From a virus (lineage: Duplodnaviria > Caudoviricetes), in the IMG/VR virus record IMGVR_UViG_3300015360_002570, positions 1-55,352 of that record: a DNA stretch of 55,352 nt; one strand, 5' to 3'. This document shows positions 1,700-54,292 of this stretch, in pieces. The notes under the pieces are model-generated. The model ran no database searches and was not told where the DNA came from. It saw only the letters and a list, made by a program, of their open reading frames with translations. A program made the position numbers and the translations under genes. How positions within the stretch are numbered: position 1 is the first letter of the stretch; the number at the start of each line of letters is the position of its first letter.

Positions 1700-2020
1700 G
1701 AGGGGTCCTGGGACGGCAGAGGTGAAAGGTGACGGGGCCGTAGCGGGCCGTGCCGTCAAGGAAGGAGAGAGCGGCTTCGAGCGGAGTCATCGAATAGAGC
1801 GGGACGGAGGGGTCGGTGCCGGAGCGGACGAGGACCCCCCTCTCCCAGTCTTTGGTGAGAAACGAGGAATAGGCGCAGGAGGGGGGACAGAAATCGTTGG
1901 GGTAGGGTTCGGCGCGGAGCTGCGTGGGAGACGTTTCGAGGACGCGGAAGAATCCGGGGAGGGAGCGGCCCACGATATGGCAGTCCTTGAAGGAGCGGAC
2001 TTCACCGGGGAAGATGGGGG
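1689..2020 (-). CDS. Hypothetical protein (start not resolved)
   Basis: Only the 3' third of ORF 1689..2456 (IFPGEVRSFKDCHIVG...) looks like real protein; upstream is Ser/Pro off-frame sequence. Confidence 0.45.
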
Positions 2021-2325
2021 TTGGGGGTGACGACGGGAGGGGGGGTGATTTCGTGGTTGCAGGCGGTGCAGAAGAGGGGGCAGGAGGCGATCCAGAGGTC
2101 GCGCTGGGACTGGAGTTTGGCGAGGATTTGGTCCTGGGTTTTCGGGTTGCCAAAGGCGTCTCGATTCTGGGGATGGAGGGTCTGGGAGAAGAGACGGCAC
2201 CGGGTGGTTCGACGTTTGCAAAGGGTGCAACGGCCCTTTCGGCGGCCACGAACAACGATCTCGGGGATGACGGGGTGGGGGTGGTGCATAGGTGGATGGG
2301 AACAAAAACCCCAGCCCTCTGACAA
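2002..2325 (-). CDS. Small CxxC...CxxC zinc-binding hypothetical protein
   Basis: CTLC and CTAC pairs; lies in the minus-strand operon. Confidence 0.55.
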   Translation of the reverse strand: MSEGWGFCSHPPMHHPHPVIPEIVVRGRRKGRCTLCKRRTTRCRLFSQTLHPQNRDAFGNPKTQDQILAKLQSQRDLWIASCPLFCTACNHEITPPPVVTPNPHLPR

Positions 2326-2346
2326 GGAGGGACGGGGCGTGAAGGG

Positions 2347-2670
2347 TCAGGGGGTGGATGTCTTGATGCGCTGGATGAGGCGGCGGATGTTGACGGGGGA
2401 CTGGCCGTAGAGCCGGGCCACGTTCTCGATTCGGAGGCCGCAAATGACGAGGGCACGGATGATCTGGCCTTCGAGTTTGGAGTTAGGCAGAATGGAGGGG
2501 TTGGTGGGAAGCTTGTACTTGGCGACCAGCTCGTAGAGGTAGCGGTTGGAGACGTTGTGTTTGCGGGCGGCCTCCGCGATGGAGAGTCCGTTGGCGCTGA
2601 TGTCGATGCGGAGGGCGCGGGTGCGGGCGGCGCCGCAAAGGGTCTTGGTCTTGGTCTTGGGGGAGGGCAT
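2347..2670 (-). CDS. Helix-turn-helix DNA-binding protein
   Basis: LSIAEAARKHNVSNRYLYELV and a second HTH-like IENVARLYGQSPVNIRRLI; AAGGA SD. Confidence 0.7.
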   Translation of the reverse strand: MPSPKTKTKTLCGAARTRALRIDISANGLSIAEAARKHNVSNRYLYELVAKYKLPTNPSILPNSKLEGQIIRALVICGLRIENVARLYGQSPVNIRRLIQRIKTSTP

Positions 2671-2723
2671 GGGGTTCCTTAGAGAGGGTCAGAAAGGAAC
2701 GATAGGTGTGTCCCCCTCTCCCG

Positions 2724-2906
2724 TCAAATGGAGGTTGGGTCGAAGAGCCCGTGGAGGACGGACCAGCGGATCAGTTCGGCGAGGATGGCGGGATTGAGGT
2801 ATACGACGGGCTCGGAGGTGTGGGAGCCCAGACGCAGTTCGATGGTGCCGTAGCCGGGAGAGGTGGCATAGACGCCGTCGCCCAGGTACGTGGGGGGTGT
2901 GGTCAT
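2724..2906 (-). CDS. Small phage protein (YLGDGVYA type), paralog of 48182..48370
   Basis: MTTPPTYLGDGVYATSPGYGTIELRLGS..EPVVYLNP; ATG overlaps the polA stop (ATGA). Confidence 0.7.
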   Translation of the reverse strand: MTTPPTYLGDGVYATSPGYGTIELRLGSHTSEPVVYLNPAILAELIRWSVLHGLFDPTSI

Positions 2907-52241: not shown

Positions 52242-52325
52242 GAAGGAAGGAATCGCGTCCGGTCAAAAGGCCCCCTCTCCCGTGGAACGCATCCTTCGTT
52301 TCAAGACGCGGGAGAGGGGATAAAA

Positions 52326-52419
52326 AGCCAGAGATGGGACTCGAACCCATGACTTCCGACGGGCCACCCGACCGAAGTTAGGAGGGACCGTCGGCTCGCT
52401 GCCGCTGCGCTACTCTGGC
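52326..52419 (-). ncRNA. tRNA-like RNA with anticodon loop replaced by an extended hairpin
   Basis: GCCAGAG/CTCTGGC acceptor, imperfect D arm, ATGGG-TTCGAGT-CCCAT T arm, CCGACGG/CCGTCGG stem enclosing 25 nt with CTTCGG. Confidence 0.75.
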
Positions 52420-52495
52420 TCCCGCGTGCGAAGCCTGGGCCGGGTAAGGGCGGCAGGGTGTTCTTCACAGAGGCAGGACAAGGCGGGGAGGGGGG

Positions 52496-53017
52496 TTAGC
52501 CCCTGATGTTTACGGTGGGGATGGGGTTGTTGGCGAAGTCGGCGGACGTCACGGCGGCGATCCCGCCGTCAAGGGCCGTGTTGCGGGGAGGCGTGGGACG
52601 GAAGACGCCGGGCGGCTCGGGCGGGAGAGAGGTGATGCCGATGAGGTCTTGGCCATAGAGATCGTGCGTTCCCTGGATGGGGGCGGGCGGAGCCTGGGGC
52701 ACGGGGTCTTCGATGCGGATGAGGGGCTTGTCGCCGAAGAGGGCGCCGAAGCCGATCTTGGAGAGGAAGGCCATGAGGCGGCTAGCCGGAAGTTCGGAAC
52801 CGTACTTCTCCTTGAACTTCTGAATGAGGTGGGAGCGGTTTCGGACGCCCTCGCGGAGGATGCCGGCGATCCGGGGCTTGAGGACGGACTGGAGGATTTC
52901 TTCCTCGAAGGGTTCGGTCCAGTGCATCTGCTTCTTCTTGGCCTTGGAAGCGGCGATGGAGAGGGAGGGGTCGGAGGGGGCGTCGTCGGGGTCGATGTCG
53001 ATGGAACTGGAACTCAT
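52496..53017 (-). CDS. Hypothetical protein
   Basis: AAGGA SD; 173 aa. Confidence 0.7.
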   Translation of the reverse strand: MSSSSIDIDPDDAPSDPSLSIAASKAKKKQMHWTEPFEEEILQSVLKPRIAGILREGVRNRSHLIQKFKEKYGSELPASRLMAFLSKIGFGALFGDKPLIRIEDPVPQAPPAPIQGTHDLYGQDLIGITSLPPEPPGVFRPTPPRNTALDGGIAAVTSADFANNPIPTVNIRG

Positions 53018-53020
53018 GGG

Positions 53021-54292
53021 TCAGGGGTCCTTGATGGTGTCGGGGTGGGGAACAGGGTCTGAGGGAAGACGGGGGATCAGGTTGTGGGCCGAGATCAGGT
53101 TGTGCCACTCGGAGAGTGGGTTGAGCATGAAGTCGGCCCAGGGAGTCAGGTCGCCGTGAGAGAAGGCTTTGGCGGGATTCGAGAGGAAGTTGGAGGGGTG
53201 AGGATCACGGGTGGCGAGGTCGGACAGGTACTTCAGACGCGAATGGTAGGAGAGAAGGCCCGACGGGTCAAGCACACGGGAGAGGGGGGAACAGGAAATG
53301 TTGACGGGAGGTTCGGTGCGGGTCTCGGCAAGGTGGGTGTATTCCTCGGTGGCGAGAGCCCAGTTGGTGATGCGGCGGCAGTAGTTGGAGAGGGTGGGCT
53401 CGCCGAAGTATTCGTACTCGGTGCGCTCGATCCCCTTGTTCTTGCCGCGGGTGGGCGTGATGGTGACGGCGCGCTTGTCGCGGTCCCTGTAGCCGAAGAT
53501 GAGGTTGGGCTTCTGGAAGATGACGTGGACCATGCCATAAACGCCTTCGCAGGCACGCCCGTCGAGAAGGGAGTAGAGGCCGGTCCTGGTTTCGGTTTGG
53601 AAATCGCGGGCGGCGGTGTCGAGGTAGAGTTGAGTCTGGAACTCGACGGGGCAGATCGACATACGGACCAAGGGAAGTAAGCCGGTCGTCTTGTAGTCGA
53701 GGAGCCAGATGGTGTGGTGTTCGCGGTGGTAGAGGACCGCATCTATAAGGATGACGACGGGGTGGCCGGTGGGCGTGAGGCCGCGGACCTCGAACTCCTG
53801 GGCGAGAACGTCGAACTTGGAGGAGAGCCAGGATCGCCATGTTGGGGCGGCCTCCCCTAATCGACGGACTGGTAGGCCCGGACGGGAGAGGGGGACGCGG
53901 GCGGAGACGGTATAGCAGGCGAGGGCGGTGAGCGCCTCCTCTTCTTCGCGGCCCAGAATGCAGGCGAGACCGGGGGGCTGGATGCCGCGGTTTTTGGCGA
54001 TGGTGGTGAGTTCGGCCTGGCGGGCGCGGAGGAGGGAGAGGTAGGCGTCGGTGTGGCCGACGATTTCGGGATGCTGGTCGGGCGTGAGAAAGGTGTCGAG
54101 CTGGGCGGCGCGGTGGAACCACGAGCCGTGGGAGAGAACGCGGGACCAGGAGAGGGCGTTGTAAAGGCCCAGGCGCTGGGTGAGGTAGTAAATGAAGGGG
54201 TCGGAGAGGGCGACCGAATAGTGAGAAGAGCGGATGGGCGGAGAGGTGGCGCGGAGCCCCATCTTTTCGAGGAGGAAGGTGTCTGAGTGCAT
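53021..54292 (-). CDS. PD-(D/E)XK exonuclease (RecB/Cas4-like superfamily)
   Basis: LSHGSWFH, AQEF, ILIDAV, WLLDYKTT, QTQLY. Confidence 0.85.
   Translation of the reverse strand: MHSDTFLLEKMGLRATSPPIRSSHYSVALSDPFIYYLTQRLGLYNALSWSRVLSHGSWFHRAAQLDTFLTPDQHPEIVGHTDAYLSLLRARQAELTTIAKNRGIQPPGLACILGREEEEALTALACYTVSARVPLSRPGLPVRRLGEAAPTWRSWLSSKFDVLAQEFEVRGLTPTGHPVVILIDAVLYHREHHTIWLLDYKTTGLLPLVRMSICPVEFQTQLYLDTAARDFQTETRTGLYSLLDGRACEGVYGMVHVIFQKPNLIFGYRDRDKRAVTITPTRGKNKGIERTEYEYFGEPTLSNYCRRITNWALATEEYTHLAETRTEPPVNISCSPLSRVLDPSGLLSYHSRLKYLSDLATRDPHPSNFLSNPAKAFSHGDLTPWADFMLNPLSEWHNLISAHNLIPRLPSDPVPHPDTIKDP

What the first reader, a model, noticed from the sequence alone, without database searches (positions are those of the whole stretch)
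1836..53894. Genome-wide 13-mer ACGGGAGAGGGGG written into coding sequence in both orientations
Seen: 38 copies of the core GGGAGAGGGGG by eye. G-form on + at 3506, 4232, 5017, 6311, 6832, 7411, 9438, 17178, 22513, 24755, 25250, 25666, 31178, 31427, 34236, 34823, 36891, 40064, 42821, 44189, 46686, 50083, 50844, 53276, 53882. C-form at 1836, 2712, 5206, 8043, 20082, 22484, 30170, 30878, 32664, 35012, 40382, 46901, 52271. Of these, 24 are the full 13-mer. Most lie inside unrelated genes and are read in different frames (TGEG, RERG, PLSR, PPLP, PSP), and many oppose the local G/C skew, so selection acts on the DNA or RNA rather than the peptide. Many sit near gene boundaries. Established: mycobacteriophage L5 stoperators are ~13-bp asymmetric multi-copy sites but are oriented with transcription; KOPS (GGGNAGGG), SRS and Chi are polarised; uptake sequences and HIP1 are not; CCCTCTCCC/GGGAGAGGG also occurs as arms of REP-like host palindromes. 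Inference: an undescribed genome-marking system, either a binding site for a phage protein (the HTH gene 2347..2670 has a copy ~40 nt upstream) or mimicry of a host chromosomal signal.
Basis: partly seen in the sequence, partly recalled or inferred. Interest (0 to 1): 0.85.

Follow-up and report, generated by a model that had tools for sequence, protein, structure and literature searches.

The report
Phage-family G-run DNA word dialects
An uncultured phage carries 38 exact copies of an 11-base G-rich word in genes on both strands, and its relatives each carry their own version of it, so some enzyme or protein reads it on the DNA, most likely as a Chi-like recombination signal.

Summary
GGGAGAGGGGG occurs 38 times (25 +, 13 -), and 24 copies are ACGGGAGAGGGGG. 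Dinucleotide shuffles, skew-aware Markov models and codon shuffles give 0.3-1.1, or about 2 in coding DNA. The copies lie in all reading frames: 13 sense, 15 antisense and 10 intergenic. Flanks are not conserved, so selection acts on DNA.

The window is a whole, circularly closed genome of an uncultured phage from microbial mats. The word is one dialect of a family trait. Related contigs from mats, lakes and oceans carry clade-specific G-run words (ATGGGAGGGGGAC, GGGAGGGGAA, GGTGGAGGGGT, GCTGGTGGGG, [CGT]AGTGGGG) in both orientations. A few sites kept their position while the word changed.

Two dialects contain published Chi octamers (GCTGGTGG, GGTGGAGG). My best reading (about 0.4) is Chi-type signals for an end-processing helicase-nuclease, written both ways in a permuted genome. 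The main rival (about 0.3) is sites for a co-evolving phage protein.

Mimicry of an abundant host word is not supported. No genome was enriched in four counts over three phylum samples (903 genomes). In the bacteria examined the 11-mer forms REP-like hairpin arms. Earlier notes of this scan describe comparable dispersed words on other DNA.

The parts
1836..1846 (-). core 11-mer, sense inside my gene call 1689-1973(-)
2712..2724 (-). full 13-mer, intergenic, 41 nt upstream of HTH gene 2347-2670(-)
3506..3518 (+). full 13-mer, antisense in DNA polymerase A gene 2903-5194(-)
4232..4244 (+). full 13-mer, antisense in DNA polymerase A gene
5017..5029 (+). full 13-mer, antisense in DNA polymerase A gene
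5206..5218 (-). full 13-mer, intergenic, 11 nt upstream of the polymerase start (may double as a ribosome-binding site)
6311..6321 (+). core 11-mer, antisense in 6240-7430(-)
6832..6844 (+). full 13-mer, antisense in 6240-7430(-)
7411..7423 (+). full 13-mer, antisense, 7 nt inside the called 5' end of 6240-7430(-)
8043..8055 (-). full 13-mer, sense in UDG-family gene 7743-8438(-). The relative G001 has its own word at the same codon position, with a different peptide
9440..9450 (+). core 11-mer, intergenic, last copy before the 7.7-kb copy-free stretch
17180..17190 (+). core 11-mer, 7 nt past the stop of primase-helicase gene 17198-18634(-)
20082..20092 (-). core 11-mer in the spacer between the TerS-like gene and TerL. 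Several relatives also have a site in this spacer
22484..22494 (-). core 11-mer, left arm of the only inverted pair, between TerL and portal
22513..22525 (+). full 13-mer, right arm of the inverted pair (20-nt loop)
24755..24767 (+). full 13-mer, sense in 24677-25639(+)
25250..25262 (+). full 13-mer, sense in 24677-25639(+)
25666..25678 (+). full 13-mer, intergenic, 18 nt upstream of 25697-27340(+), a probable capsid gene by position only
30170..30180 (-). core 11-mer, antisense in 30157-30831(+)
30878..30890 (-). full 13-mer, antisense in MptE-like/methyltransferase gene 30788-32365(+)
31178..31190 (+). full 13-mer, sense in 30788-32365(+)
31429..31439 (+). core 11-mer, sense in 30788-32365(+)
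32664..32676 (-). full 13-mer, antisense in 31972-34974(+)
34236..34248 (+). full 13-mer, sense in 31972-34974(+)
34824..34834 (+). core 11-mer, sense, 140 nt before the stop of 31972-34974(+)
35012..35022 (-). core 11-mer, intergenic, 37 nt past that stop
36892..36902 (+). core 11-mer, sense in 36656-38584(+)
40064..40076 (+). full 13-mer, sense, 17 nt before the stop of 39446-40093(+)
40382..40394 (-). full 13-mer, antisense in 40083-41735(+)
42821..42833 (+). full 13-mer, antisense to my uncertain gene call 42489-43034(-)
44190..44200 (+). core 11-mer, sense in 43009-46818(+)
46686..46698 (+). full 13-mer, sense in 43009-46818(+)
46901..46911 (-). core 11-mer between the two convergent gene arms
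50083..50095 (+). full 13-mer, intergenic
50845..50855 (+). core 11-mer, antisense in AAA_24 gene 50815-51777(-). The relative G010 has its own word at the same position
52271..52283 (-). full 13-mer, intergenic, 30 nt upstream of tRNA-Arg(tct) 52168-52241(-)
53276..53288 (+). full 13-mer, antisense in PD-(D/E)XK nuclease gene 53021-54292(-)
53882..53894 (+). full 13-mer, antisense in the PD-(D/E)XK gene. G001 and G002 have their own word at the same codon position
19152..19718 (+). Candidate phage-encoded reader. It is conserved in 6 of 7 relatives and lies just upstream of TerL, where a small terminase would be. A low-confidence model shows an N-terminal helix-helix-hairpin unit followed by long helices
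   Evidence: pLDDT 52; no Pfam, PHROG or PDB sequence match:
53021..54292 (-). PD-(D/E)XK (RecB/Cas4-like) nuclease gene. With AAA_24 (50815-51777) and ERCC4 (1139-1699) it forms the phage's own recombination and repair set, which bears on the Chi reading
   Evidence: all Pfam matches at or below the curated cut-offs except ERCC4
9451..17179 (.). Copy-free stretch of small accessory genes with lower third-position GC and few counterparts in relatives. 5.3 copies were expected; P(0)=0.005, chosen post hoc

Best explanation
The word is a Chi-type signal. It is a short asymmetric G-rich sequence, read on one DNA strand by an end-processing helicase-nuclease. On meeting the word, the enzyme switches from degrading the DNA to recombinational repair and replication.

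The genome is circular or circularly permuted, so a free end can arise anywhere. Copies are therefore kept about every 1.5 kb in both orientations, wherever codons allow.

Shown:
- The word is exact, dense, orientation-mixed and independent of reading frame.
- Relatives carry clade-specific versions of it.
- Some sites changed word while keeping their position.
- Two dialects contain published Chi octamers.

Inferred: the class of reader, the switch in enzyme activity, and the link between permutation and mixed orientation.
For: 1. Selection is on DNA. There are 38 exact copies against 0.3-1.1 expected, in five reading contexts, 13 sense and 15 antisense, with unconserved flanks.

2. The trait belongs to the family and has dialects. 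These are ATGGGAGGGGGAC (G001 15 copies, G002 9), GGGAGGGGA(A), GGAGGGGTT, (G)GTGGAGGGGT, (G)CTGGTGGG(G), CAGTGGGGG(T), GAGTGGGGG and TAGTGGGGA. Each is clade-specific on a portal tree of 60 rows.

3. Two dialects contain known Chi octamers. Clade C loci hold the E. coli Chi octamer GCTGGTGG: 8 copies in 8.5 kb in L277 and 9 in 13.5 kb in L343. The G008 group holds GGTGGAGG: 9 copies in 15.8 kb. GGTGGAGG is one of the H. influenzae Chi forms. The two positions that differ between these dialects are the same ones that vary among the five candidate proteobacterial Chi motifs (passages of PMC8022716).

4. The density is like that of Chi-rich lambdoid phages: one per 1.46 kb here against one per 1.86 kb in LLS (PMC12315714 passages).

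5. Spacing is more even than random in the relatives (Fisher P=0.009 over 6 genomes), though not in G000 itself, where CV is 1.05.

6. The 7.7-kb accessory stretch has no copies. Chi is likewise rarer in recently acquired DNA.

7. There is a moderate, consistent polarity. 341 copies lie on the portal/terminase strand and 222 on the other, in the same direction in 9 of 9 clade groups. This is the strand that is active in lambda-type phages.

8. A 663-codon frame runs across the record's ends and there is no terminal repeat, so the assembly closes on itself.
Against: - Orientation is only about 60:40. The published Chi-rich phages show 20:3 and 32:0, with terminal clustering.
- The G000 word needs 11-13 exact bases, whereas known Chi sites are 5-8 bases.
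- G000 encodes its own PD-(D/E)XK nuclease, AAA_24 ATPase and ERCC4 nuclease. Chi-rich lambdoid phages mostly lack a recombination module.
- No sampled bacterial genome is enriched over the reversed-word control. I counted AGTGGGGG in 201 Cyanobacteriota and 301 Chloroflexota, GAGTGGGGG in 401 Pseudomonadota, and the 13-mer in 301 Chloroflexota, where the maximum was 33 copies per 4.5 Mb.
- The core AGTGGGG is kept in phage clades with 41% to 64% GC. This fits a reader carried by the phage at least as well.
- The G000 word itself contains no published Chi octamer.
- The host is unknown.
Confidence: 0.4

Rival explanations
1. The copies are binding sites for a sequence-specific DNA-binding protein encoded by the phage, which co-evolves with its sites. 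This would be a self-tag used for packaging choice, genome compaction, or control of transcription or replication. The best candidate by position and conservation is the TerS-like protein 19152-19718. Under this reading the Chi-like look of two dialects is a coincidence of G-rich words.
For: - Dialects follow the phage phylogeny, and the core AGTGGGG persists from 41% to 64% GC.
- Sites converted in place between dialects: 2 of 9 mapped G001 sites coincide with G000 sites against 0.13 expected, and 1 of 11 G010 sites coincides.
- No bacterial genome was enriched in four counts over three phylum samples (903 genomes).
- The words carry 11-13 bases of information, as monomer-bound asymmetric operators do.
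- Sites recur between the TerS-like gene and TerL, and between TerL and portal, in 5 of 7 genomes.
- Copies are about twice as frequent in intergenic DNA as expected (51 of 168 against 24.5).
- The polarity follows the packaging genes.
Against: - No reader has been identified.
- The HTH gene next to a copy is not conserved.
- The TerS-like model has low confidence.
- The no-word loci (L344, L294, L334) keep all the portal-side core genes, and L344 also the TerS-like one, so no gene presence or absence tracks the trait there.
- No integrase or repressor was found by Pfam in the proteins scanned.
- Two dialects equal published Chi octamers.
Confidence: 0.3
2. The copies are recognition sites of a phage nicking or base-modifying enzyme, like the localized nicks of T5, phiKMV-like and LUZ24-like/tf phages. 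The word would then mark places where virion DNA is interrupted or chemically marked.
For: In tf and its relatives a 9-mer occurs 8-14 times. Its positions are similar among relatives, and the word differs between lineages (TACTGTGAC against TACTATGAC). The authors read this as co-evolution of the nickase and its sites (PMC3517423 passages). The same pattern of a shifting word with some kept positions is seen here. The two-arm gene layout is also alike.
Against: All known nick systems have every site on one strand. Here the split is 25:13, and one inverted pair lies only 20 nt apart. No nickase or modification enzyme was recognised. A modification target need not be over-represented. Only assembled contigs were on hand, so nicks and modified bases could not be looked for.
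Confidence: 0.1
3. The word mimics a host chromosomal word other than Chi, such as an uptake sequence, a REP-binding factor site or a nucleoid protein site.
For: Uptake sequences share the density, the mixed orientation, the location in genes and the dialects with a kept core. For the Neisseriaceae dialects I saw only the listing and start of the abstract of PMC3630211; the rest is recalled. The exact 11-mer is common in bacteria, for example 1,438 copies in G015 and 366 in G116.
Against: - In the bacteria examined the copies are arms of hairpins or parts of longer repeats. The listed places in G014 and G015 are nearly all paired. All 9 sites in 360 kb of G065 share a repeat of about 50 nt. 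In G272 the copies lie near contig ends.
- In the phage, 36 of 38 copies are single with unrelated flanks.
- None of the sampled genomes comes near the phage's density.
- Two unrelated viral contigs with the 13-mer carry it only as hairpin arms.
Confidence: 0.08
4. The copies are a by-product: composition or mutation bias, decayed REP or mobile-element copies, or an RNA-level pairing element.
For: The + strand is extremely G-rich in places (skew up to 0.40), and one-mismatch variants cluster there. Some G-form/C-form pairs 187-213 nt apart flank a start or a stop and could pair in mRNA. Sense copies 3-20 nt before starts may act as ribosome-binding sites.
Against: - Skew-aware models expect about 1 copy.
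- There are 38 exact copies against 29 one-mismatch copies spread over 33 possible neighbours.
- There are no conserved flanks.
- The same phenomenon occurs in relatives at 41% GC, where the word runs against composition (14 copies against 0.23 expected in L319).
- An equal use of sense and antisense is not expected of an RNA signal.
Confidence: 0.04

Closest known systems
Chi sites enriched in phages that rely on host RecBCD (lambdoid LLS group; Pseudomonas MD8 with GCTGGCGC)
   Same: A G-rich asymmetric word written into genes regardless of frame. The density is about one per 1.5-2 kb. Two dialects in this family literally contain GCTGGTGG and GGTGGAGG.
   Different: Those phages have 8-mers, nearly all in one orientation and clustered at one end, and they mostly lack their own recombination genes. 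Here the word is 11-13 bases, the orientation split is 60:40, the copies are spread over the genome, and recombination-type genes are present.
Stoperators of Cluster A mycobacteriophages (L5 gp71 sites; recalled, not read here)
   Same: An asymmetric word of about 13 bp, some 24-36 copies over the genome, with variants that differ between sub-lineages.
   Different: Stoperators are oriented with transcription, lie mostly between genes and serve a prophage repressor. Here there are 13 sense and 15 antisense copies, 28 of 38 lie in genes, and no integrase or repressor was found.
DNA uptake sequences and their dialects (Neisseriaceae DUS, Pasteurellaceae USS)
   Same: A 9-13-mer, orientation-free, about one per kb, mostly inside genes, with lineage dialects around a fixed core and a few inverted pairs.
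   Different: Uptake sequences belong to competent bacteria and are read by a pilin. Here the bearer is a phage family, and no sampled bacterium shares the word at any such density.
Localized nick sites of T5, phiKMV-like and LUZ24-like/tf phages
   Same: A short exact word with 8-14 copies or more. Positions are partly kept among relatives, and the word shifts between lineages.
   Different: All nick sites lie on one strand. Here both strands carry copies. Nicks could not be examined.
REP-like hairpins with CCCCCTCTCCC/GGGAGAGGGGG arms in many bacterial phyla
   Same: The identical 11-mer, often with the same GT/AC extension.
   Different: In the bacteria examined the word is part of a hairpin or a repeat of about 50 nt. 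In the phage only one pair exists (22484/22513), and the other 36 copies stand alone.

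Membership tests
Chi (RecBCD/AddAB hotspot) | Short (5-8 nt) asymmetric word | tested here: not met
   The word is asymmetric and G-rich, but G000 needs 11 exact bases plus a preferred AC prefix. Known lengths are given.
Chi (RecBCD/AddAB hotspot) | Sequence related to an established Chi | tested here: inconclusive
   Met in relatives: GCTGGTGG in clade C and GGTGGAGG in the G008 group. Not met by the G000 word itself.
Chi (RecBCD/AddAB hotspot) | Over-represented and polarised in the host's core genome | tested here: inconclusive
   The host is unknown. No enrichment over the control was seen in 201 Cyanobacteriota, 401 Pseudomonadota or 301 Chloroflexota. Other phyla were not sampled.
Chi (RecBCD/AddAB hotspot) | Active in one orientation; Chi-rich phages strongly one-sided | tested here: not met
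   25:13 in G000 and 341:222 across the family, against 20:3 and 32:0 in published phages. A permuted genome could explain this, but that is inferred.
Chi (RecBCD/AddAB hotspot) | Switches the helicase-nuclease from degradation to RecA loading | not testable with these tools
   Needs the enzyme or the host.
Stoperator/immunity repressor system | Asymmetric site of about 13 bp in 20-40 copies | tested here: met
Stoperator/immunity repressor system | One orientation relative to transcription, mostly intergenic | tested here: not met
   13 sense, 15 antisense, 10 intergenic. For the family: 65, 52 and 51.
Stoperator/immunity repressor system | Temperate phage with a cognate repressor | tested here: inconclusive
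   No integrase, ParAB or repressor family was found by Pfam or PHROGs among the proteins scanned. Many proteins have no match at all.
Localized nick sites (T5/phiKMV/tf type) | All sites on one strand | tested here: not met
Localized nick sites (T5/phiKMV/tf type) | Interruptions present in virion DNA | not testable with these tools
   Only Logan contigs were on hand.
DNA uptake sequence (DUS/USS) | Word abundant in the genome of a competent bacterium and read by its uptake machinery | tested here: not met
   The bearer is a phage, and no sampled bacterial genome has the single word at comparable density.
REP/hairpin repeat | Inverted pair or conserved longer unit | tested here: not met
   2 of 38 copies form the only inverted pair; flanks are otherwise unrelated.
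KOPS/SRS translocase-guiding words | G-rich 8-mer with strong replichore polarity | tested here: not met
   No switch of orientation with skew or position. GGGNAGGG is not contained in the word (read directly).

The most novel reading that the evidence does not exclude
The phage family carries its own self-recognition code. A conserved phage protein reads a clade-specific G-run word that is kept every 1-3 kb on both strands. The TerS-like winged-helix candidate upstream of TerL is the first suspect. The word would let the virus tell its own DNA from host or rival DNA when packaging, protecting or replicating it. This would be a viral counterpart of bacterial uptake-sequence dialects, with reader and word co-evolving.
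Probability: 0.28. Interest if true: 0.85.

Novelty: new variant of a known kind. Interest (0 to 1): 0.7.

Why it matters
If the Chi reading holds, phage genomes would report the Chi words of hosts that nobody has cultured. Chi is established in only a handful of species. This one family would supply about eight candidate words, and they could be tested directly with host extracts or cloned RecBCD/AddAB.

The dialects are a ready-made data set for working out how the specificity evolves.

Either way the word is a practical marker for assigning contigs to this family and clade.

Tried and rejected
- Close DNA relatives among 50,697 GenBank phages: none. Portal and TerL proteins: no match. The primase matched only distantly, at 22-25% identity.
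- A portal search of genome contigs for prophages found nothing.
It gave mostly single chance hits plus REP-like hairpins in unrelated contigs.
- HIP1-type palindromes as a clue to the host: absent from G000.
- The protein atlas search with the MptE-like/methyltransferase protein returned viral clusters only and gave no host clue.
- Sequencing runs: 8 microbial-mat runs hold the stretch, and no RNA holder is listed.
- Laying 4 runs gave only contigs of near-identical strains. None of the 40 differences shown (of 204) falls in any of the 15 sites of that stretch, but about 2 would be expected, so this has no power. Starts, ends and nicks cannot be seen in contigs.
- Gene presence or absence near the portal does not separate no-word loci from word loci.
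- PDB sequence searches with 19152-19718 and 50163-50741 gave nothing usable. The structure model of 19152-19718 was too poor to send to a fold search.
- Earlier notes of this scan for this genome and for look-alike stretches: none.
- Literature: none of the 15 listed papers, of 79 that hold one of the four words, concerns phages by title. A general search for phage motifs in both orientations listed nothing comparable among 15 of 574 papers.
- Supplementary tables of PMC8022716, which list de novo over-represented octamers, could bear on the AGTGGGGG-type words but are closed.

Full report
**What the window is**

The 55,352-base window is a whole IMG/VR virus record, rated 100% complete. It has no terminal repeat. 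A 663-codon open frame on the - strand runs from 1688 down through base 1 and on from 55352 to 55052, so the assembly closes on itself. The genome is therefore circular or circularly permuted.

My own crude gene calls give two arms:
- A replication arm on the - strand, 46982-55352 and 1-18634.
- A structural arm on the + strand, 18649-46818.

Recognisable genes are:
- DNA polymerase A (2903-5194)
- a UDG-family protein (7743-8438)
- an ERCC4 nuclease (1139-1699)
- a primase-helicase (17198-18634)
- TerL (20389-22341)
- an MptE-like/methyltransferase protein (30788-32365)
- an AAA_24 ATPase (50815-51777)
- a PD-(D/E)XK nuclease (53021-54292)
- a small HTH protein (2347-2670)
- tRNA-Arg

The portal (22673-24667) is named from its position and conservation only. 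No integrase or repressor family was found in the proteins scanned. Portal and TerL have no match among 50,697 GenBank phage records. Eight microbial-mat metagenome runs hold the sequence.

**The observation**

GGGAGAGGGGG occurs 38 times, 25 on + and 13 on -.

Expected numbers are far lower:
- Dinucleotide shuffles give 0.28 for the core and 0.02 for the 13-mer.
- Strand- and skew-aware Markov models of order 2-4, computed per 5-kb window, give 0.55-1.14 and 0.02-0.06.
- Synonymous-codon shuffles leave a mean of 12.7, and about ten of those are the untouched non-coding copies.

The next commonest unrelated 11-mer has 7 copies. There are 38 exact copies but only 29 with one mismatch. Flanks are unrelated beyond a preferred (G/A)AC before the core and G/A after it.

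After adding the gene 30788-32365 to my calls, 13 copies are sense, 15 antisense and 10 intergenic. They fall in five reading contexts. Selection therefore acts on the DNA. An RNA signal would not sit equally on both strands.

**The word is one dialect of a family trait**

Two syntenic relatives share 30-66% protein identity with G000 and have no copy of the G000 word. Instead they have ATGGGAGGGGGAC, 15 times in G001 and 9 times in G002.

A portal alignment brought in more relatives from viral and metagenome collections, 12 and 75 loci. De novo word statistics and a quick portal tree of 60 rows show clade-specific words:

| Clade | Members | Word |
|---|---|---|
| A | G000 | GGGAGAGGGGG |
| A | G001 | GGGAGGGGG |
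| B | G009 | GGGAGGGGA |
| B | G010 | GGAGGGGTT |
| B | G008 group | (G)GTGGAGGGGT |
| C | L277, L343, L280, L281 | (G/T)(C/T)TGGTGGG(G) |
| D | GC 55-64% | CAGTGGGGG(T) |
| E | marine, GC 41-43% | GAGTGGGGG |
| F | GC 47-51% | TAGTGGGGA / AGTGGGGG |
| G and L294 | one small clade plus the separate locus L294 | at most a weak G(G/T)GTCGTA |

All dialects occur in both orientations.

Pooled over eight genomes, 168 sites split into 65 sense, 52 antisense and 51 intergenic, against 24.5 intergenic expected. Most positions are not shared between dialects, but a few are:
- 2 of 9 mapped G001 sites coincide with G000 sites, against 0.13 expected.
- 1 of 11 G010 sites does so.

At 8043 and 53882 the neighbouring protein is conserved while the peptide over the site differs (LRERGSS against SMGGG; VPLSRP against VPLPSN). 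The DNA word was kept there and converted in place.

Spacing is more even than random in the relatives (CV 0.5-0.8; Fisher P=0.009 over six genomes). This does not hold in G000 itself, where CV is 1.05. A 7.7-kb accessory stretch in G000 has no copy.

**Is it a host word?**

The exact 11-mer is common in bacteria, but in a different form.
- In G014 and G015 the listed copies are nearly all inverted pairs.
- In G065, all 9 sites in 360 kb share a repeat of about 50 nt.
- In G272 the copies lie near contig ends.
- Two unrelated viral contigs carry the 13-mer only as hairpin arms.

In the phage only one such pair exists, at 22484/22513.

I also ran counts on evenly drawn samples, each against the reversed word as control. 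None found an enriched genome:
- The 13-mer in 301 Chloroflexota: at most 33 copies per 4.5 Mb.
- AGTGGGGG in 201 Cyanobacteriota.
- AGTGGGGG in the same 301 Chloroflexota.
- GAGTGGGGG in 401 Pseudomonadota.

These are samples of three phyla. Other phyla were not tested.

**Which mechanism**

The one positive functional clue is sequence. Clade C loci are packed with GCTGGTGG, the E. coli Chi: 8 copies in 8.5 kb and 9 in 13.5 kb. The G008 group is packed with GGTGGAGG, one of the Haemophilus influenzae Chi forms (Chi list from passages of PMC8022716). The two positions that differ between these dialects are the ones that vary among the candidate proteobacterial Chi motifs listed there.

Chi-rich phages are known. 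The lambdoid phage LLS has 23 Chi sites, one per 1.86 kb, written into genes (passages of PMC12315714). Those phages have nearly all sites in one orientation near one end, because only one end is open to RecBCD.

A permuted genome has no fixed end, which would call for both orientations everywhere. The family also shows a consistent 341:222 excess on the portal/terminase strand, in the same direction in 9 of 9 clade groups. That is the strand that is active in lambda-type phages.

On this basis I rank a Chi-type signal first, at about 0.4.

Against it:
- The word is 11-13 bases long.
- The polarity is weak.
- The phage has its own nuclease and ATPase genes.
- No host enrichment was found.
- The core is constant across phage clades of very different GC.

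All of these fit the main rival, a phage-encoded reader that co-evolves with its sites (about 0.3). The HTH gene beside a copy has a detectable counterpart in only 1 of 7 relatives. The conserved TerS-like protein 19152-19718 is the better candidate, but its model is poor (pLDDT 52).

Nick sites of the T5/tf kind share the shifting word and the kept positions, but they are strictly one-stranded (passages of PMC3517423). Stoperators are oriented with transcription and intergenic (recalled). Neither family's defining features are met here.

**Novelty and limits**

The four words were not found in any phage paper among the 15 listed of 79 that hold one of them. I found no cultured relative.

Earlier notes of this scan describe comparable dispersed words on other DNA. 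The general phenomenon has therefore been seen before in the scan, though not this family or its dialect series.

None of these could be reached with assembled contigs.

Noticed in passing
window 1-55352: GC skew is very strong and comes in blocks. The + strand has skew +0.38 to +0.40 at 1-10 kb, -0.27 at 20-25 kb, and +0.18 to +0.30 from 35 kb on. The coding strand is C-rich in the replication arm and in the head genes, but G-rich in the tail genes.
   Followed up: partly
window 1688..1 / 55352..55052 (- strand): A 663-codon open frame crosses the record's ends and there is no terminal repeat. The 'linear' record is therefore a closed circle or a permuted genome.
   Followed up: yes
L153-L232; G014, G015, G065, G116: Hairpins with CCCCCTCTCCC/GGGAGAGGGGG arms occur in many bacterial phyla, up to 1,438 copies per genome. 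They are often nested with a CCCTCACCCC/GGGGTGAGGG pair. This looks like a very widespread REP-like element whose spread across phyla is unexplained.
   Followed up: partly
G001, G002, G010 (relatives): GATC is about twice as frequent as base composition predicts: 409 against 172, 263 against 120, and 260 against 136. In G000 it is not (209 against 187).
   Followed up: no
L315, L337, L288/L292, L318 (relatives): Some relatives have over-represented palindromes instead of, or beside, the G-run word. These are GGCGATCGC (HIP1-like, 4 copies), CGGATCCG (8), GGTATACC (6) and ACGTACGT (6). They may be clues to the host or to methylation.
   Followed up: no
window 30788-32365 (+): A two-domain protein, MptE-like plus class I methyltransferase, sits inside the structural arm. 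Its nearest clusters are viral. My gene caller missed this gene.
   Followed up: partly
window 5019/5206, 34824/35012, 46688/46901: Three pairs of a G-form and a C-form copy lie 187-213 nt apart. One pair brackets the start of the polymerase gene, and the other two bracket the stops of the two longest structural genes.
   Followed up: no
G272 (a Chloroflexota genome), several contigs: 24 of its 27 copies of the 11-mer carry the AC prefix. Seven lie 90-200 nt from a contig start, as if the 13-mer were part of a repeated mobile unit that breaks the assembly.
   Followed up: no
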